Notes under the pieces: generated by a model
What the model saw: only the letters and a program-made list of their open reading frames with translations
What the model was told of the DNA's origin: nothing
The model's database searches: none
In this document: positions 2,298 through 10,807 of the stretch, one piece after another
Numbering within the stretch: position 1 is the first letter of the stretch
Layout: each line of letters opens with the position of its first letter
DNA from: a virus
Taxonomy: Duplodnaviria > Heunggongvirae > Uroviricota > Caudoviricetes
Length of the DNA: 13,000 nucleotides
IMG/VR virus record: IMGVR_UViG_2571042690_000014
Strand: one strand, 5' to 3'
Made by a program: the position numbers and the translations under genes

Positions 2298-5200
2298 ATG
2301 GGCAAAGGAAGCAGTAAGGGGCATACCCCGCGCGAAGCGAAGGACAACCTGAAATCCACGCAATTACTGAGTGTGATCGATGCCATCAGCGAAGGGCCGA
2401 TTGAAGGTCCGGTGGATGGATTAAAAAGCGTGCTGCTGAACAGTACACCGGTGCTGGACAGTGAGGGGAATACCAACATCTCCGGTGTTACGGTGGTGTT
2501 CCGGGCAGGTGAGCAGGAGCAGACACCGCCGGAGGGATTTGAATCCTCCGGTTCCGAGACGGTGCTGGGTACGGAAGTGAAATACGACACGCCGATCACC
2601 CGCACCATCACGTCGGCAAACATCGACCGTCTGCGCTTTACCTTCGGTGTGCAGGCACTGGTGGAAACCACCTCAAAGGGGGACAGGAATCCATCGGAAG
2701 TCCGCCTGCTGGTTCAGATACAACGTAACGGTGGCTGGGTGACGGAAAAAGACATCACCATTAAGGGTAAAACCACCTCACAGTATCTGGCCTCAGTGGT
2801 GGTGGATAACCTGCCGCCGCGCCCGTTTAATATCCGGATGCGCAGGATGACGCCGGACAGCACCACAGACCAGCTGCAGAACAAAACGCTCTGGTCGTCA
2901 TACACCGAAATCATCGATGTGAAACAGTGCTACCCGAACACGGCACTGGTCGGCGTACAGGTGGACTCGGAGCAGTTCGGCAGCCAGCAGGTGAGTCGTA
3001 ATTATCATCTTCGCGGGCGCATTCTGCAGGTGCCGTCGAACTATAACCCGCAGACGCGGCAATACAGCGGTATCTGGGACGGAACGTTTAAGCCGGCATA
3101 CAGCAACAACATGGCCTGGTGTCTGTGGGATATGCTGACCCATCCGCGCTACGGCATGGGAAAACGTCTTGGTGCGGCAGATGTGGATAAATGGGCGCTG
3201 TATGTCATCGGCCAGTACTGCGACCAGTCGGTGCCGGACGGCTTTGGCGGCACGGAGCCGCGCATCACCTGTAATGCGTACCTGACCACACAGCGTAAGG
3301 CGTGGGATGTGCTCAGTGATTTCTGCTCGGCGATGCGCTGTATGCCGGTATGGAACGGGCAGACGCTGACGTTCGTGCAGGACCGGCCGTCGGATAATGT
3401 GTGGACCTATAACCGCAGTAATGTGGTGATGCCGGATGATGGCGCGCCGTTCCGCTACAGTTTCAGCGCCCTGAAGGACCGCCATAATGCCGTTGAGGTG
3501 AACTGGACTGACCCGGATAACGGCTGGGAAACGGCAACAGAGCTTGTGGAGGACACGCAGGCCATTGCCCGTTATGGTCGTAATGTCACGAAGATGGATG
3601 CCTTTGGCTGTACCAGCCGGGGGCAGGCACACCGCGCCGGGCTGTGGCTGATTAAAACGGAGCTGCTGGAAACGCAGACCGTGGACTTCAGCGTGGGCGC
3701 AGAAGGGCTTCGCCATGTACCGGGCGATGTTATTGAAATCTGCGATGATGACTATGCCGGTATCAGCACCGGTGGTCGTGTGCTGGCGGTGAGCAGCCAG
3801 ACCCGGACGCTGACGCTCGACCGTGAAATCACGCTGCCATCCTCCGGCACCACGCTGATAAGCCTGGTTGACGGAAGTGGCAATCCGGTCAGCGTGCAGG
3901 TCCAGTCCGTCACCGACGGCGTGAAGGTGAAAGTGAGCCGGGTTCCTGACGGCGTTGCAGAATACAGCGTGTGGGGGCTGAAGTTGCCGACGTTGCGCCA
4001 GCGCCTGTTCCGCTGTGTGAGTATCCGTGAGAACGACGACGGCACGTATGCCATCACCGCCGTGCAGCATGTACCGGAAAAAGAAGCCATCGTGGATAAC
4101 GGGGCGCACTTTGACGGCGACCAGAGCGGCACGGTGAATGGTGTCACGCCGCCAGCGGTGCAGCACCTGGCCGCAGAAGTCACTGCAGACAGCGGGGAAT
4201 ATCAGGTGCTGGCGCGATGGGACACACCGAAGGTGGTGAAGGGCGTGAGCTTCCTGCTCCGTCTGACCGTAACAGCGGACGACGGCAGTGAGCGGCTGGT
4301 CAGCACGGCCCGGACGACGGAAACCACATACCGCTTCAGGCAACTGGCGCTGGGGCGTTACACGCTGACGGTCCGGGCGGTAAATGCGTGGGGGCAGCAG
4401 GGCGATCCGGCATCGGTATCGTTCCGGATTGCGGCACCGGCAGCGCCTGTCACTATTGAACTGATACCAGGGTATTTTCAGATAACAGCGGTCCCGAAAC
4501 TGGCTGTATATGACCCGACGGTGCAGTTTGAGTTCTGGTTCTCGGAAAAGCGGATTATCGATATCAGGCAGGTTGAAACCAGCGCGCGTTATCTTGGTAC
4601 GGCGCTGTACTGGATAGCCGCCAGTAGCAATATTAAGCCGGGTTATGATTATTACTTTTATATCCGCAGCGTGAACACCGTTGGTAAATCGGCATTTGTG
4701 GAGGCCGTTGGTCGGGCGAGCGATGATGCGGAAGGTTATCTGAATTTTTATAAAGGGTTGATCAATAAAACGCATCTCGGCAAGGAACTGCTGGAAAACT
4801 TTGAGCTGACGGAAGATAACGCCAGCAAACTGGAGGAGTTTTCGAAAGAGTGGAAGGACGCCAACGATAAATGGAATGCCATGTGGGGCGTCAAAATTGA
4901 GCAGACCAAAGACGGCAAACATTATGTCGCGGGGCTTGGCCTCAGCATGGAGGATACGGAGGAAGGCAAACTGAGCCAGTTCCTGGTTGCCGCTAACCGT
5001 ATCGCGTTTATTGACCCGGCAAACGGGAATGAAACGCCGATGTTTGTGGCGCAGGGCAACCAGATATTCATGAACGACGTGTTCCTGAAGCGCCTGACGG
5101 CCCCCACCATTACCAGCGGCGGTAATCCTCCGGCATTTTCCCTGACACCGGACGGGCGGCTGACGGCGAAAAATGCCGATATCAGCGGTAACGTGAATGC

Positions 5201-6386: not shown

Positions 6387-6413
6387 AGCCCGCCGGTTCA
6401 GGCGGGCTTTTTT
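6387..6413 (+). terminator. Rho-independent terminator downstream of lom
   Basis: AGCCCGCC-GGTTCA-GGCGGGCT followed by TTTTTT. The equivalent hairpin is present after lom in lambda (recalled from memory). Confidence 0.6.
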
Positions 6414-6556: not shown

Positions 6557-7015
6557 ATGGGGAACGAAAAGAGCTTAGCGCACACCCGATGGAACTGTAA
6601 ATATCACATAGTTTTTGCGCCAAAATACCGAAGACAGGTGTTCTACAGAGAGAAGCGTAGAGCAATAGGCAGTATTTTGAGAAAGCTGTGTGAGTGGAAA
6701 AGTGTACGGATTCTGGAAGCTGAATGCTGTGCAGATCATATCCATATGCTTGTGGAGATCCCGCCCAAAATGAGCGTATCCGGCTTTATGGGATATCTGA
6801 AAGGGAAAAGCAGTCTGATGCTTTACGAGCAGTTTGGTGATTTGAAATTCAAATACAGGAACAGGGAGTTCTGGTGCAGAGGGTACTACGTCGATACGGT
6901 GGGTAAGAACACGGCGAAGATACAGGATTACATAAAGCACCAGCTTGAAGAGGATAAAATGGGAGAGCAGTTATCGATTCCCTATCCGGGCAGCCCGTTT
7001 ACGGGCCGTAAGTAA
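6557..7015 (+). CDS. tnpA: IS200/IS605-family Y1 (HUH) transposase TnpA
   Basis: The 152-aa product from the Met at 6557 (MGNEKSLAHTRWNCKYHIVFAPKYRRQVF...) has the HUH motif HIHMLVEI and a downstream catalytic Tyr region (REFWCRGYYVDTVG). The ORF track's longer form (6506) begins upstream of the ribosome-binding site and is less likely. Confidence 0.85.
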   Translation: MGNEKSLAHTRWNCKYHIVFAPKYRRQVFYREKRRAIGSILRKLCEWKSVRILEAECCADHIHMLVEIPPKMSVSGFMGYLKGKSSLMLYEQFGDLKFKYRNREFWCRGYYVDTVGKNTAKIQDYIKHQLEEDKMGEQLSIPYPGSPFTGRK

Positions 7016-7135
7016 CGAAGTTGGATGCAAATGTCAGATCGTGTGCGCCTGTTAGGGCGCGGCTGGTAAGAGAGCCTTATAGGCGCATTTGAAAAACCTC
7101 CGGCTATGCCGGAGGATATTTATTGTGGAGTGGAT

Positions 7136-9514
7136 ATGGCAGCAGTAAAAATCTCAGGTGTGCTGAAAGATGGTGCGGGAAAACCAATACAGAACTGCAC
7201 TATTCAACTGAAGGCAAAGCGTAACAGCACCACGGTACTGGTGAACACGGTGGCTTCTGAAAATCCGGATGAAGCCGGACGTTACAGCATGGATGTTGAG
7301 CATGGTCAGTACAGCGTCACCCTGCTGGTTGAAGGTTTTCCGCCTTCACATGCCGGGACCATTACCGTCTATGAAGGTTCCAGACCAGGTACGCTGAATG
7401 ATTTTCTCGGTGCCATGACGGAGGATGATGTCCGACCGGAGGCACTGCGCCGCTTTGAGCAGATGGTGGAAGAAGCGGCACGCAACGCTGAAGCCGCCTC
7501 TCAGAGCGCAGCGGCGGCAAAGAAATCCGAAACTGCAGCGGCATCATCGAAGAACGCGGCGAAAACCTCAGAAACGAATGCAGCTAACAGCGCACAGGCG
7601 GCAGCGACCTCAAAGACTGCATCGGCAAACTCCGCGACAGCAGCCAAAAAATCAGAAACCAACGCGAAAAATAGCGAGACAGCCGCAAAGACGAGCGAAA
7701 CCAACGCAAAGTCCAGCCAGACGGCAGCGAAAACCAGCGAAACGAATGCCAAAGCCAGTGAAACTGCGGCAAAAAACAGCCAGGTTGCAGCAGCCCAAAG
7801 CGAGAGCGCGGCAGCCGGTTCTGCGACTTCAGCAGCTGGATCAGCAACTGCTGCGGCTAACAGCCGGAAAGCTGCGAAGACGAGTGAAACTAACGCAAAG
7901 TCCAGCCAGACGGCAGCGAAGACCAGCGAAACGAATGCCAAAGCCAGCGAAACTGCGGCGAAAAACAGTCAGGATGCAGCAGCCCAAAGCGAGAGTGCTG
8001 CAGCTGGTTCTGCAAGCGCGGCGGCTGCTTCTGCCACTGCATCAGCCAACAGTCAAAAAGCAGCAAAAACCAGTGAAACCAATGCAAAGACAAGCGAGAC
8101 TGCAGCGGCGAACTCGGCGAAAGCATCCGCTGCAAGCCAGACCGCTGCAAAAGCAAGTGAAGACGCAGCCAGAGAGTATGCAAGCCAGGCAGCAGATCCG
8201 TATAAATATGTCTTACAGCCGCTGCCTGATGTGTGGATACCGTTTAACGATTCACTGGATATGATTACGGGCTTTTCGCCATCATATAAAAAGATTGTTA
8301 TTGGTGACGACGAAATAACGATGCCTGGCGACAAGATTGTTAAGTTTAAACGTGCATCGAAAGCAACCTATATTAACAAATCTGGTGTGCTGACAGAGGC
8401 TGCCATTGATGAGCCACGATTTGAACGTGATGGCCTGCTTATTGAGGGGCAAAGAACTAATCTTCTGCTTAATTCAACAAATCCATCTAAATGGAATAAG
8501 TCAGGCAATCTGGAACTCACAGAAATATCCACGGATTCTTTTAATTTTACTTATGGGAGATTTACTGTAAAAGATACTCTTATTGGTCAGACAAGTGCTA
8601 TTAATATCGTAACGATTTCTGGCAGTAAAGGGTTTGATGTCACAGGTGATGAAAAATATGTGACCATTTCATGCCGTGTAAGAAGTGATGTTGAAAATAT
8701 AAGGTGTCGTTTAAGATTTGAACACCATGATGGTTATACTTACACTTTTTTGGGAGATGCTTACCTCAATTTATCAACACTTGTAATTGATAAAACTGGT
8801 ACTGCTGCAGACCGTATTATTGCAAAGGCTGTAAAAGATGAGGTTACTGGTTGGATTTTCTATCAGGCTACAATTAATGCACTAGATACAGAGAGCATGA
8901 TTGGTGCGATGGTTCAATACGCTCCTGTAAAAGGTTCAGGTACAGCATCTGGAGACTATCTGGATATCGCAACTCCACAAGTGGAAGGTGGATCAAGTGC
9001 TTCGTCATTTATTGTAACTGATATAACTGCAAGCACTCGCGCAAGCGATATGGTGACAGTCCCAATCAAGAATAACCTTTATAATCTTCCTTTTACGGTT
9101 CTTTGTGAGGTACATAAGAACTGGTATAAAACGCCAAATGCAGCACCGCGTGTTTTTGATACCGGCGGTCATCAAACCGGAGCGGCTATTATTCTTGGCT
9201 TCGGTCGTTCAACAGATTACGACGGATTTCCTTATTGTGATATAGGTTTGGCTAACAGACGGGTAAACGAAAACGCATCGCTTGAAAAAATGGTTATGGG
9301 GATGCGTGTAAAGTCAGATCAGTCTACGTGCTCAGTAAGTAACGGGCGTATATCCAGCGAAAAGAAAGCCACATGGTCCTATATTCAGAACTCCGCAATT
9401 ATCCGTATTGGAGGCCAGACTACAGCCGGGTTGCGTCATTTATTTGGTCATGTCAGGAATTTCAGAATATGGCACAAGGCATTGACTGATGCTCAGATGG
9501 GGGAGTCAATCTAA
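7136..9514 (+). CDS. stf: Side tail fibre protein Stf (lambda Stf-like N-terminus, divergent distal domain)
   Basis: From the ATG at 7136, MAAVKISGVLKDGAGKPIQNCTIQLKAKRNSTTVLVNTVASENPDEAGRYSMDVEHGQYSV... matches the lambda Stf N-terminus. It is followed by Ala/Ser/Thr-rich KTSETNAK-type repeats and an AT-richer C-terminal region that does not match lambda. The ribosome-binding site is GGAG at 7127-7130; the ORF track start at 7106 lies inside the IS200 right end and is unlikely. Confidence 0.85.
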   Translation: MAAVKISGVLKDGAGKPIQNCTIQLKAKRNSTTVLVNTVASENPDEAGRYSMDVEHGQYSVTLLVEGFPPSHAGTITVYEGSRPGTLNDFLGAMTEDDVRPEALRRFEQMVEEAARNAEAASQSAAAAKKSETAAASSKNAAKTSETNAANSAQAAATSKTASANSATAAKKSETNAKNSETAAKTSETNAKSSQTAAKTSETNAKASETAAKNSQVAAAQSESAAAGSATSAAGSATAAANSRKAAKTSETNAKSSQTAAKTSETNAKASETAAKNSQDAAAQSESAAAGSASAAAASATASANSQKAAKTSETNAKTSETAAANSAKASAASQTAAKASEDAAREYASQAADPYKYVLQPLPDVWIPFNDSLDMITGFSPSYKKIVIGDDEITMPGDKIVKFKRASKATYINKSGVLTEAAIDEPRFERDGLLIEGQRTNLLLNSTNPSKWNKSGNLELTEISTDSFNFTYGRFTVKDTLIGQTSAINIVTISGSKGFDVTGDEKYVTISCRVRSDVENIRCRLRFEHHDGYTYTFLGDAYLNLSTLVIDKTGTAADRIIAKAVKDEVTGWIFYQATINALDTESMIGAMVQYAPVKGSGTASGDYLDIATPQVEGGSSASSFIVTDITASTRASDMVTVPIKNNLYNLPFTVLCEVHKNWYKTPNAAPRVFDTGGHQTGAAIILGFGRSTDYDGFPYCDIGLANRRVNENASLEKMVMGMRVKSDQSTCSVSNGRISSEKKATWSYIQNSAIIRIGGQTTAGLRHLFGHVRNFRIWHKALTDAQMGESI
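7688..8065 (+). repeat. Tandem duplication of a 189-bp (63-codon) unit inside stf
   Basis: AAGACGAGCGAAACCAACGCAAAGTCCAGCCAGACGGCAGCGAAAACCAGCGAAACGAATGCCAAAGCCAGTGAAACTGCGGC... from 7688 recurs from 7877 with only a few substitutions. It encodes two copies of TSETNAKSSQTAAKTSETNAKASETAAKNSQ.AAAQSESAAAGSA. Confidence 0.75.
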
Positions 9515-9795
9515 TGAAAGATTTAACACTCAAATTTGCAGACAGGGCCGACTTTTCGGCCTTTATGGATAGCATTGGCTATTATGATGACGAGTCGATG
9601 CAGGATGATATTCTTATTGACGTGATAGGTAACGTGTACAAAGAAACCGGAGAACTGACTGAAGATGGCGAACCGGTATGTGTTAAGGAAGATGGATATT
9701 ATGTAAACGTGCGCATCATTAATGATGCAAAAAAATCGTCAATATTCGATGAATACGCGGTTGTAGTTGAACATCAACTTCGTGGCTGGATGTGA
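9514..9795 (+). CDS. Hypothetical small acidic protein (93 aa), translationally coupled to stf
   Basis: The start overlaps the stf stop (TAATG) and is preceded by a GGGGGAG ribosome-binding site. The product is rich in Asp/Glu (MKDLTLKFADRADFSAFMDSIGYYDDESMQDDILIDV...) with no recognisable motif, and the sequence is AT-rich like the distal part of stf. Confidence 0.5.
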   Translation: MKDLTLKFADRADFSAFMDSIGYYDDESMQDDILIDVIGNVYKETGELTEDGEPVCVKEDGYYVNVRIINDAKKSSIFDEYAVVVEHQLRGWM

Positions 9796-9804
9796 GGGAG
9801 ACAA

Positions 9805-10509
9805 ATGGCTACATCGACAGTAATTCCAGGAGACATCACCACGTTAAAGGGAGATGTCAGTAAAGCCAAGGAAGATATTTCCTCAATTAACGGAAAAGTA
9901 TCAACGCTTCAGGCTGATATGACCAGTGCAAAGCAGGATATCAGCACCAGATACACAAAAACTGAAGTTGATAATAAGCTGAAAAACAAACTGGAAGTGA
10001 ACGCTCTGGAAAGCGGTCGTTATGGTGGAGATTTTTACCCGTTGACTGGCCGTGAAGCGTTTTATTTGTGGGGATTGGGCACGACTACAGCGGCGGCAAA
10101 CCTTTATCTTAATCCTGACCCCGCAATTTCGTCTGTGCTGCGGTCAACATCGTCTATCCGCTATAAACATTCAGTAGAGACAATAGATTCAGAGCACGCC
10201 GATCTCATTTTCAGGATGCGCCCTGTGTGGTACAGGTCACAATGCGAAAATGACAGGCGTGACTGGGGATTCTACGGATTGATTGCCGAGGAAGTAGGAG
10301 AAATTGCCCCTCAGTTTGTACACTGGCGACCAGCTAACGAAGATGATGCACCGGAAGCTATTTCCAGCAATGGCCTTGTTGCCGAAGGTGTAATGTACGA
10401 ACGTCTGGTTGTTCCACTGATTCACCATATCCAGAAGCTGACTGAAAGAGTTGATGAACTTGAGTCAGAATTAAAGTTGTTATCCGTTTCCCGAAGCGAT
10501 ATCGGATAA
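9805..10509 (+). CDS. Fibre-like coiled-coil protein with C-terminal intramolecular-chaperone (peptidase S74-like) domain
   Basis: It has a GAGGGAG ribosome-binding site. The N-terminus carries repeated coiled-coil-like units (GDVSKAKEDISSINGKVSTLQADMTSAKQDISTRYTKTEVDNKLKNKLE). The C-terminus fits the S74 / chaperone-of-endosialidase pattern: SIRYK (S-x-R-x-K), then LIFRMRPVWYRS, WGFYGLIAEEVGEIAPQFV and VMYERLVVPLIHHIQKLTERVDELESEL. The assignment is from memory of the family signature, not a search. Confidence 0.55.
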   Translation: MATSTVIPGDITTLKGDVSKAKEDISSINGKVSTLQADMTSAKQDISTRYTKTEVDNKLKNKLEVNALESGRYGGDFYPLTGREAFYLWGLGTTTAAANLYLNPDPAISSVLRSTSSIRYKHSVETIDSEHADLIFRMRPVWYRSQCENDRRDWGFYGLIAEEVGEIAPQFVHWRPANEDDAPEAISSNGLVAEGVMYERLVVPLIHHIQKLTERVDELESELKLLSVSRSDIG

Positions 10510-10519
10510 AGGAGGAGTA

Positions 10520-10807
10520 ATGGATATAAGCCCCTTACTTCATGCACTTTGTGCTGTGGCTGCGCAAACACTGGTTGGTCTTTTTACCGGAAACTGGGCT
10601 TACGGAGCGATAGCCGGTTGTACGTTCTTCATTGCGCGTGAACACACCCAGGCAGAATATCGCTGGATCGAAATGTTCGGGCATGGCAAGCGAATGAATA
10701 TGCCGTGGTGGGGCGGTTTTGATCCGCGCGCGTGGGATGTGACAAGCCTGATGGATTTTGCTGTGCCGGTGGTGGCGTGTCTGCTGATCTGGATGTTGAT
10801 CCGTTAA
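10520..10807 (+). CDS. Hypothetical small membrane protein (95 aa)
   Basis: It has a strong GGAGGAG ribosome-binding site 3 nt after the preceding stop. There are hydrophobic segments at both ends (LLHALCAVAAQTLVGLFTG, AIAGCTFFIA, FAVPVVACLLIWMLI). GC content is higher than in the two genes before it. Confidence 0.5.
   Translation: MDISPLLHALCAVAAQTLVGLFTGNWAYGAIAGCTFFIAREHTQAEYRWIEMFGHGKRMNMPWWGGFDPRAWDVTSLMDFAVPVVACLLIWMLIR

What the first reader, a model, noticed from the sequence alone, without database searches (positions are those of the whole stretch)
9514..9795. Translationally coupled acidic 93-aa protein directly after stf
The TAATG stop/start overlap with stf and the preceding GGGGGAG ribosome-binding site imply co-translation with the fibre. 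The protein is strongly acidic and has no motif I recognise. It may be a fibre-specific chaperone or a decoration subunit of a type different from lambda Tfa.
Basis: inference. Interest (0 to 1): 0.45.

Follow-up and report, generated by a model that had tools for sequence, protein, structure and literature searches.

The report
Conserved small partner of lectin-ended tail fibres
The 93-residue acidic ORF after the side tail fibre gene is a real, conserved phage gene of unknown function that always follows fibres ending in a lectin-like domain, so it is most likely a fibre accessory protein, either a joint or cap piece or a chaperone.

Summary
An ATG ORF lies at 9514-9795 (93 aa, pI 4.2, net charge about -12). 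It overlaps the stf stop as TAATG and has GGGGGAG 8 nt upstream.

The window is a lambdoid prophage of E. coli ST131. The ORF is RefSeq 'hypothetical protein' WP_000654141.1 and a full-length member of phrog_1361 (unknown function). It has no Pfam, NCBIfam or PADLOC match and no informative PDB or BFVD fold match.

It is a real gene: dN/dS is about 0.29, and recognisable homologues occur in about ten lineages of enterobacterial, Aeromonas and metagenomic phages. In every locus inspected, the homologue sits directly after a fibre gene whose product ends in a ConA/LamG ('galectin-like') domain. It overlaps that gene's stop codon or starts within 47 nt of it.

Usually a second fibre gene follows 9-13 nt later; its first ~20 residues are conserved and the rest is variable. 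Several active lambdoid phages lack that second fibre yet keep the small gene under purifying selection.

Best reading: a dedicated accessory subunit of lectin-ended proximal fibres, either a joint/cap piece or an assembly chaperone, unrelated to lambda Tfa. The choice between these is unresolved. No paper I could search addresses it. Interest is moderate.

The parts
7106..9514 (+). stf, the proximal side tail fibre (802 aa from the longest ORF; RefSeq starts at 7136, 792 aa)
   Evidence: PF08400 phage_tail_N E 2.6e-67; phrog_1419 end to end; NF048003 GTA head-spike-fibre domain at aa 445-646; RefSeq WP_001554173.1
9152..9511 (+). Last ~120 aa of Stf: the C-terminal half of a ConA/LamG-like ('galectin-like') domain ending ..RHLFGHVRNFRIWHKALTDAQMGESI. 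This block co-occurs with the small gene in all lineages inspected.
   Evidence: Sub-threshold PF13385 Laminin_G_3 hits on the last ~50 aa (E 0.027 here, 1e-4 in IrisVonRoten, 1.1e-5 in the Aeromonas phage). The block is 70-93% identical in Nonagvirus, Seuratvirus, T5-like, Warwickvirus and Dhillonvirus fibres. PMC11990801 calls the IrisVonRoten Gp22 equivalent 'galectin-like'.
9499..9505 (+). GGGGGAG Shine-Dalgarno-like site, 8 nt before the ATG, embedded in the Gly-Glu codons of Stf
   Evidence: Similar GGGGA(G/A) sites occur at the same place in tunzivis, KarlBarth and ev243.
9512..9516 (+). TAATG stop/start overlap of stf and the 93-aa ORF
   Evidence: The same 1-nt overlap or a 4-nt overlap is found in 60+ related loci.
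9514..9795 (+). 93-aa acidic protein (phrog_1361; WP_000654141.1, hypothetical). Predicted core 1-68 is beta-alpha-alpha-beta4. The tail 69-93 is less confident and ends in the conserved R-x-W-(A/M).
   Evidence: AF2 with a diverse alignment gives pLDDT 86.2 and pTM 0.73; the tail blocks score 66-70. Conserved positions are L6, D36, G39, G61, N65 and R90.
9794..9800 (+). GAGGGAG ribosome-binding site for the next gene. The spacer between the ORF93 stop and the next ATG is 9 nt.
   Evidence: The same 9-12 nt spacing holds in nearly all loci.
9805..10509 (+). Distal fibre protein (234 aa): conserved N-terminal motif MATSTVIPGDITTLKGDV (9805-9879), a coiled coil, and a Peptidase_S74 intramolecular chaperone (aa 116-172, about 10150-10320)
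   Evidence: PF13884 E 4.4e-6. It matches phrog_3299 only over that profile's last 238 positions, and phrog_4563 and phrog_19752 only over their first 32-33 residues. The N-terminal motif is shared with T5-like, Warwickvirus, Dhillonvirus and Queuovirinae distal fibres.
10520..10807 (+). 95-aa hydrophobic protein (phrog_1443, unknown function). It closes the cassette. In lambdoid phages without a distal fibre it follows the small gene directly.

Best explanation
The ORF encodes a dedicated accessory subunit of lateral (side) tail fibres whose proximal protein ends in a ConA/LamG-like lectin domain.

Proposed mechanism:
1. It is translated from the same late transcript as Stf, by re-initiation at the TAATG overlap, in roughly equimolar amounts. 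This is inferred from the geometry.
2. It acts at the C-terminal end of the Stf trimer. This is inferred from the apparently obligate co-occurrence with that end domain.
3. My preferred version is that it stays there as a small cap or joint piece. The folded core (residues 1-68) would bind the fibre end. In two-part fibres, the protein, probably through its conserved tail ending R-x-W-A/M, would help seat the conserved N-terminal ~20 residues of the distal fibre (here the 234-aa product of 9805-10509). This would let interchangeable distal fibres be plugged onto one proximal fibre.

Shown here: the gene is real; the synteny and coupling are conserved; selection is purifying with or without a distal fibre; the fold has no known relative.

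Inferred: binding to Stf, presence in the virion, and the joint role.
For: Gene reality and family:
- It is a full-length member of phrog_1361. The family is narrow: 57 clusters at 50% identity among 1.84 billion representatives. A few positions are conserved throughout.

Association with the lectin-ended fibre:
- In every locus inspected, the homologue starts at or within 47 nt of the stop of a fibre gene ending in the motif ..G-H-[IV]-[RK]-N-[FL]-R-[IV]-W-x-x-x-L-T-x-x-Q. The loci cover lambdoid, Nonagvirus, Seuratvirus, Dhillonvirus, Warwickvirus, several T5-like types, rV5-like, an Aeromonas P2-like phage, a Leclercia prophage and a metagenomic phage.
- tblastn of the small protein finds 186 phage records; the Stf end domain finds 204, with nearly the same organism make-up and adjacent coordinates.
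- Four hits picked from the weaker, uncharacterised part of the Stf-domain hit list all carry the small gene next door.
- 49 of the 53 annotated phage records sampled have a tail or fibre gene abutting the match.

Support for a joint role:
- A second fibre gene follows 9-13 nt later in most lineages. Its first ~20-25 residues are conserved while the rest diverges. ESCO3 and Tritos against the window give Stf end 0.92-0.93, small protein 0.94-0.97 (residues 1-68), distal residues 1-25 0.76, and distal residues 26-85 0.20-0.22.
- Across 60 loci, small-protein divergence tracks the distal N-terminus best: Mantel r 0.77, against 0.45 for the Stf end and 0.37 for the next 60 distal residues.
- For the IrisVonRoten homologue cassette, PMC11990801 already proposes that Gp24 attaches to the proximal fibre Gp22. 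It does not discuss the small Gp23.
- The conserved C-terminal tail is the least confidently folded part of the monomer model, as expected of a segment that orders on a partner.
Against: - There is no direct evidence that the protein is in virions. The only proteomics found (AKFV33, excised gel bands) could not detect a 10-kDa protein.
- Several plaque-forming lambdoid phages (ev243, Perceval, 2G7a, PhiR40_1, plus an E. ruysiae prophage) have Stf, then the small gene, then the membrane protein, with no distal fibre. They still keep the gene under purifying selection.
- The Aeromonas, rV5-like and one metagenomic lineage also have no fibre gene directly downstream. The joint role therefore cannot be the whole function.
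- Partner specificity is loose. PhiR55_1 pairs a much more divergent family member with a nearly identical distal N-terminus. All combinations of small-protein tail variant, distal allele and Stf end type occur.
- The Mantel signal is confounded by physical linkage.
- No co-folding could be run.
Confidence: 0.4

Rival explanations
1. Transient assembly chaperone. The protein is needed in stoichiometric amounts to fold or trimerise the C-terminal end of Stf, which, unlike the distal fibre, has no intramolecular S74 chaperone and no Tfa gene. It is released and is not part of the virion. This would be functionally like lambda Tfa, T4 gp38 or gp57A, but from an unrelated family.
For: - It occupies the position directly after the fibre gene, with translational coupling, as Tfa-type genes do.
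- Stf has no Peptidase_S74 domain, and no Tfa-family gene is in the cassette.
- The gene is kept and under purifying selection in phages that lack any distal fibre. This fits a role tied only to Stf.
- It is small and acidic.
- The N-terminal part is better conserved than the C-terminal part, as has been described for Tfa proteins (my recollection of North et al. 2019, which is in the reference list of PMC11990801; I did not read it here).
Against: - There is no sequence or fold similarity to any known fibre chaperone.
- The small protein stays 84-97% identical (residues 1-68) while the last 120 aa of Stf drop to about 40% identity among close lambdoids. Conversely, it drops to 43-57% where that Stf end stays 70-83% identical. 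That is unexpected for a client-specific chaperone, unless it recognises only the invariant last strand.
- This reading does not explain why the distal fibre's N-terminus is conserved together with the small protein.
Confidence: 0.35
2. Adaptor or chaperone that serves only the distal fibre (ORF234), with no role for Stf itself.
For: The strongest covariation is with the first 25 residues of the distal fibre. The gene lies between the two fibre genes in most lineages.
Against: The gene is maintained with dN/dS about 0.3 in two deep sublineages of lambdoid phages that have no distal fibre gene. It is also present in the Aeromonas P2-like and rV5-like phages, which have no fibre gene downstream. 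It is never seen apart from the lectin-ended fibre.
Confidence: 0.08
3. A passenger gene unrelated to the fibre (a moron, anti-defence or regulatory protein) that merely rides in the recombination-prone fibre locus.
Confidence: 0.1
4. Spurious ORF, or a fragment of a larger gene.
For: None beyond its small size and its 'hypothetical' annotation.
Against: dN/dS is 0.29; all other frames contain stops; the length is conserved at 85-110 aa in phages down to about 25% identity; the AF2 model is confident; no fused forms appear among 442 relatives.
Confidence: 0.01

Closest known systems
phrog_1361 (also VOG7707 and FIG00639828; RefSeq WP_000654141.1) - a catalogued family of unknown function
   Same: End-to-end HMM match, E 1e-46. 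The family is annotated 'hypothetical protein' in all records seen.
   Different: Nothing differs; it is a member. The catalogue entry carries no function, and no paper I could search discusses the family.
Gp23 of Tequintavirus IrisVonRoten (Bas32), between proximal fibre Gp22 and the T-shaped distal fibre Gp24 (PMC11990801)
   Same: It is a direct homologue (39% identity in tblastn) in the same three-gene order. The Stf-like Gp22 ends in the same domain (72% identity over the last 120 aa), and Gp24 starts with the same N-terminal motif. The paper proposes that Gp24 attaches to Gp22 and calls the Gp22 end domain galectin-like.
   Different: The paper does not assign or discuss the small protein; one sentence even uses 'Gp23' for the proximal fibre. 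The distal fibre there is 574 aa with two receptor-binding domains, against a minimal 234 aa here.
Tail fibre assembly proteins: lambda Tfa, Mu gpU, P2 gpG, T4 gp38 (Pfam Caudo_TAP and relatives)
   Same: The gene lies immediately downstream of the fibre gene. The expected role is at the fibre's distal end, and some of these proteins remain bound to the tip (from my own knowledge of these families).
   Different: There is no sequence match at E<=1 in Pfam or NCBIfam, and no structural match. The protein is half the size, and its client ends in a lectin jelly-roll rather than a Tfa-dependent tip.
T4 long tail fibre knee proteins gp35/gp36
   Same: The gene sits between those for the proximal and distal half-fibres. 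The hypothesised role is a small connector between two trimers (from my knowledge of T4).
   Different: There is no sequence similarity. T4 gp35 is about four times larger. A virion location is not shown for this protein, and some relatives have no distal fibre.
Branched LtfA/LtfB fibres of T5-like DT57C (PMC4728585, PMC10713586)
   Same: A second fibre protein is carried by a first one that anchors to the tail.
   Different: By those papers both DT57C fibre proteins carry an S74 chaperone domain. The term searches of the two DT57C papers turned up no small ORF between ltfA and ltfB. I did not inspect the DT57C locus itself.

Membership tests
phrog_1361 | Significant full-length match to the family HMM | tested here: met
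   E 1e-46, 158 bits, residues 1-93 on profile positions 1-92 of 92
Tfa-type tail fibre assembly proteins (Pfam Caudo_TAP and relatives) | Sequence match to the family model | tested here: not met
   0 Pfam families at E<=1 and 0 NCBIfam families
Tfa-type tail fibre assembly proteins (Pfam Caudo_TAP and relatives) | Gene immediately downstream of its client fibre gene | tested here: met
   1-nt overlap here; the same or a 4-nt overlap in 60+ loci
Tfa-type tail fibre assembly proteins (Pfam Caudo_TAP and relatives) | Required for folding or trimerisation of the fibre tip; binds it | not testable with these tools
   Needs co-expression or co-folding.
Intramolecular chaperone (Peptidase_S74, PF13884) | S74 domain at the C-terminus of the fibre polypeptide | tested here: not met
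   Absent from the 93-aa protein and from Stf; present in the next protein at aa 116-172, E 4.4e-6
Fibre joint or adaptor proteins (T4 gp35/gp36-like in function) | Gene placed between the proximal and distal fibre genes | tested here: met
   True in the window and in most lineages, but not in ev243-type lambdoids, the Aeromonas phage or rV5-like phages
Fibre joint or adaptor proteins (T4 gp35/gp36-like in function) | Structural component of the virion at the junction | not testable with these tools
   No virion proteomics covering a 10-kDa protein was found. Covariation with the distal N-terminus is only suggestive.
Known anti-phage defence or anti-defence proteins (PADLOC-DB) | Match to a defence-system model | tested here: not met
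   0 families at E<=1
Any solved protein fold family | Significant structural match of the confident AF2 model | tested here: not met

The most novel reading that the evidence does not exclude
The family is a previously unrecognised class of fibre-joint protein. It would be a universal small socket on lectin-ended proximal fibres that accepts distal fibres carrying a short conserved N-terminal plug. That would explain how lambdoid, T5-like, Drexlerviridae, Dhillonvirus and Queuovirinae phages exchange distal receptor-binding modules so freely. In phages without a distal fibre it would simply cap the fibre end.
Probability: 0.3. Interest if true: 0.6.

Novelty: new variant of a known kind. Interest (0 to 1): 0.4.

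Why it matters
Lateral tail fibres set which O-antigen types a coliphage can reach, and they are the main target for engineering host range. This small gene sits at the exact boundary where natural recombination swaps distal fibre modules between unrelated phages.

The junction region is present in about a fifth of complete E. coli genomes, and the small gene is found in 186 sequenced phage records, including BASEL model phages. Yet it is annotated 'hypothetical' and is left out of published fibre models.

- If it is a joint piece, chimeric fibres will need it, and structure predictions of these fibres that omit it are incomplete.
- If it is a chaperone, it is a new family needed to express such fibres recombinantly.

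Either outcome can be tested with existing model phages.

Tried and rejected
- The first AF2 run, on a shallow alignment of sequences at least 85% identical, gave pLDDT 57.8 and was discarded. A diverse alignment fixed this.
- The PDB sequence profile search gave only a chance-level GAPDH hit.
- Two of the three large homology searches returned mostly near-identical E. coli sequences. The representative search and a profile of distant members were more useful.
- The search for related loci failed with the diverse alignment. It found few loci for T5-like and other subfamilies in IMG/VR and only 4 in the GTDB species genomes.
- My first, ungapped right-aligned identity for the Stf end was distorted by a 1-residue length difference (..GESI against ..GESIK). 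I replaced it with proper alignments.
- I proposed that the R-x-W-A C-terminus exists only to dock the distal fibre. I rejected this as the sole role because the Aeromonas and ev243-type proteins keep it without a downstream fibre.
- I considered strict co-specificity between the small protein and the distal N-terminus. PhiR55_1 and the free reassortment of alleles reject it.
- Literature searches found no statement about this protein: DT57C LtfA/LtfB, both BASEL papers, BF23, rV5/phi92 cryo-EM, AKFV33 proteomics, ECOR lambdoids, and 'small RBP' papers.
Full report
OBSERVATION. The upstream 802-codon ORF (7106-9514; RefSeq starts it at 7136) ends with TAA at 9512-9514, so the junction reads TAATG with a one-base overlap. 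GGGGGAG lies at 9499-9505, 8 nt before the ATG. These bases also encode the Gly-Glu of the conserved Stf C-terminus (..QMGESI). The product has 21 Asp+Glu against 9 Lys+Arg, pI 4.17 and charge about -12.

ORIGIN AND NEIGHBOURS. The window is 100% identical to a lambdoid prophage of E. coli ST131 (EC958, JJ1886 and many others) next to zinT. The gene order is J, lom, an IS200C transposase, stf, the 93-aa ORF (WP_000654141.1, 'hypothetical protein'), a 234-aa 'tail fiber domain-containing protein', and a 95-aa hypothetical.
- Stf has the prophage tail fibre N-terminal domain (PF08400, E 2.6e-67) and a GTA head-spike-fibre domain.
- The 234-aa protein has a Peptidase_S74 intramolecular chaperone domain. 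It matches long fibre families only over their C-terminal parts, and other families only over their first 32-33 residues.
- No terminator-like site was found on the + strand between 7115 and 11600. The four genes are separated by -1, 9 and 10 nt, which is consistent with one transcript.

IS IT A REAL GENE? Yes.
- The junction region occurs in 1068 of 5426 complete E. coli genomes.
- Among 84 loci with the 93-codon form there are 41 DNA variants. Their median pairwise dN/dS is 0.29, and the other five frames hold 2.5-11 stops.
- The ORF matches phrog_1361 ('unknown function') end to end, E 1e-46.
- An exhaustive HMMER search of 1.84 billion cluster representatives found only 57 clusters, a narrow family.
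- The divergent members align over their full length at 23-57% identity to the window protein. L6, D36, G39, G61, N65 and R90 are conserved, and the usual C-terminal end is P-x-R-x-W-A.
- A profile of the most distant members found 442 proteins. All those listed are stand-alone proteins of 85-165 aa, none has a Pfam domain, and every one that carries a name is called 'hypothetical'.

THE KEY ASSOCIATION. tblastn finds the protein in 186 phage records, and a distant member finds 133. I inspected loci from the following groups:
- lambdoid phages (Tritos, PhiR49_1, IdasGreatGrand, ev243, Perceval, 2G7a, 4A7, PhiR40_1, PhiR55_1);
- Nonagvirus (ESCO3, BRET) and Seuratvirus (VogelGryff);
- Dhillonvirus (KarlBarth);
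- Warwickvirus (tunzivis, tonn, SECphi27) and the unclassified Escherichia phage morffagbaw, which has the same locus layout;
- several T5-like types (IrisVonRoten, SP15, IME178);
- rV5-like myoviruses (EmilHeitz);
- an Aeromonas P2-like phage, a Leclercia prophage and a metagenomic phage.

In every one, the small gene begins at or within 47 nt of the stop of a fibre gene, usually with a 1- or 4-nt overlap. That fibre always ends in the same kind of domain, finishing ..G-H-[IV]-[RK]-N-[FL]-R-[IV]-W-x-x-x-L-T-x-x-Q.

Pfam gives consistent but sub-threshold Laminin_G_3 (ConA-like lectin) hits on exactly this end. [quoted passage not shown]

The reverse test agrees. The last 125 residues of Stf hit 204 phage records with almost the same organism make-up and with coordinates abutting the small gene. 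Four hits picked from the weaker, uncharacterised part of that hit list all carry a family member immediately downstream (hmmsearch E 3e-24 to 1.7e-36). As far as I could sample, the small protein and the lectin-ended fibre never occur apart.

THE DISTAL FIBRE. In most lineages a second fibre gene follows 9-13 nt after the small gene. Its first ~20-25 residues (M-x-T-x-T-x-I-P-x-D-I-T-x-L-K) are shared between phages whose distal fibres are otherwise unrelated.

Module boundaries show this clearly. Against the window, ESCO3 and Tritos are 92-93% identical over the last 120 aa of Stf and 94-97% over the small protein core. They are 76% identical over distal residues 1-25 but only 20-22% over residues 26-85 (also seen in megablast).

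Across 60 non-redundant loci, small-protein divergence correlates best with the distal N-terminus: Mantel r is 0.77, against 0.45 for the Stf end and 0.37 for the next 60 distal residues. The signal is strongest for the small protein's own C-terminal tail. This fits a three-part junction of Stf end, small protein and distal N-terminus. It resembles functionally the T4 gp34-gp35-gp36 knee, and it fits the published proposal that IrisVonRoten Gp24 hangs on Gp22. That paper does not discuss the intervening Gp23.

WHY THE JOINT MODEL IS NOT ENOUGH.
- Five lambdoid phage records (ev243, Perceval, 2G7a, PhiR40_1, and 4A7, whose stf is interrupted by mobile-element genes) and an E. ruysiae prophage have Stf, then the small gene, then the 95-aa membrane protein, with no distal fibre gene.
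- These fall into two deep sublineages (dN about 0.3, dS saturated). Within each, dN/dS is about 0.3, so the gene is maintained without a distal fibre.
- The Aeromonas, rV5-like and one metagenomic lineage also lack a downstream fibre.
- Specificity is loose. PhiR55_1 combines a much more divergent family member with a nearly identical distal N-terminus. All combinations of tail variant, distal allele and Stf end type occur among close relatives.
- The covariation signal is partly expected from linkage alone.
- The small protein does not track the Stf end either. It stays 84-97% identical (residues 1-68) where the last 120 aa of Stf fall to about 40%, and it drops to 43-57% where that end stays 70-83% identical. 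If it binds Stf, it probably recognises the near-invariant last strand rather than the variable lectin surface.

VERDICT ON MECHANISM. What is shown is a real, conserved gene of unknown fold family. It is translationally coupled to lectin-ended proximal tail fibres, apparently co-inherited with them without exception, and usually placed at the proximal/distal fibre junction. What is inferred is that it acts on the Stf C-terminal end.
- My preferred reading is a small cap or joint subunit that, where a distal fibre exists, helps seat its conserved N-terminal plug (confidence about 0.4).
- The closest rival is a released assembly chaperone for the Stf end, doing what Tfa does but from an unrelated family (about 0.35).
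- A role only for the distal fibre is contradicted by the phages that lack a distal fibre.
- A passenger gene unrelated to the fibre is unlikely given the synteny across unrelated genomes.
- A spurious ORF is excluded.

The family is already catalogued (phrog_1361, VOG7707, a RefSeq WP accession). It is uncharacterised in every paper I could search. I rate it a new variant of a known kind, namely fibre accessory proteins, and of moderate interest. Its value lies in its position at the natural module-swapping boundary of coliphage fibres and in how easily it can be tested in BASEL model phages.

Noticed in passing
window 6557-7015 (+), with hairpin 7097-7115: An IS200C tnpA is inserted between lom (with its terminator-like hairpin at 6387-6408) and stf in this ST131 prophage. 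A perfect 8-bp GC-rich hairpin sits right at the stf start. The insertion may lower expression of the whole fibre cassette in this prophage.
   Followed up: partly
window 10520-10807 (+): The 95-aa protein (phrog_1443, unknown function) has three hydrophobic stretches, judged by eye from the sequence. In lambdoid phages that lack the distal fibre it follows the small gene directly, so the distal fibre gene looks like a module inserted between two conserved neighbours. It is absent from the virulent phages with the same fibre cassette. It may be a moron or membrane protein rather than a fibre part.
   Followed up: partly
window 9805-10509 (+); loci L009-L088: The distal fibre here is minimal. 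The S74 chaperone domain starts at residue 116, so if it self-cleaves as S74 chaperones do, the mature part would be only about 115 residues (N-terminal plug plus coiled coil), with hardly any room for a receptor-binding domain. At the same site, related prophages carry a 346-aa allele or rarer alleles of 157-351 aa.
   Followed up: partly
window 8438-9043 (Stf aa 445-646): Stf matches the NCBIfam 'GTA head spike fiber' domain (E 1.2e-15). It also matches, weakly (E 0.15, not significant), the solved Rhodobacter GTA head spike fibre Rcc01080 (PDB 6TB9) just before the lectin-like end.
   Followed up: no
phage records MG065635, MG065652-55, MG065666, MG065676, MG065692 ('Campylobacter phage'), OR848352 and OR847733 ('Listeria phage'): Records labelled Campylobacter or Listeria phages carry the coliphage-type small gene. 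The Campylobacter-labelled records match the rV5-like coliphage form of the small protein at about 93% identity. They look like mislabelled or contaminating coliphage sequences.
   Followed up: no
L101 (phage 4A7) 917-3333: In phage 4A7 the stf gene is interrupted by three genes annotated 'Mobile element protein' just upstream of the conserved last ~35 codons. The small gene and the membrane-protein gene remain intact.
   Followed up: partly
PMC11990801, Fig 12 legend versus main text: The paper names the IrisVonRoten proximal fibre Gp22 in the figure legend but Gp23 in the text. By locus tag, Gp23 is the small protein studied here (annotated 'tail fiber protein' in GenBank), and it is otherwise not discussed.
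   Followed up: yes
window 2898-4922 (-): A 674-codon antisense ORF lies inside the J gene. It is probably an artefact of the composition of J and was not examined.
   Followed up: no
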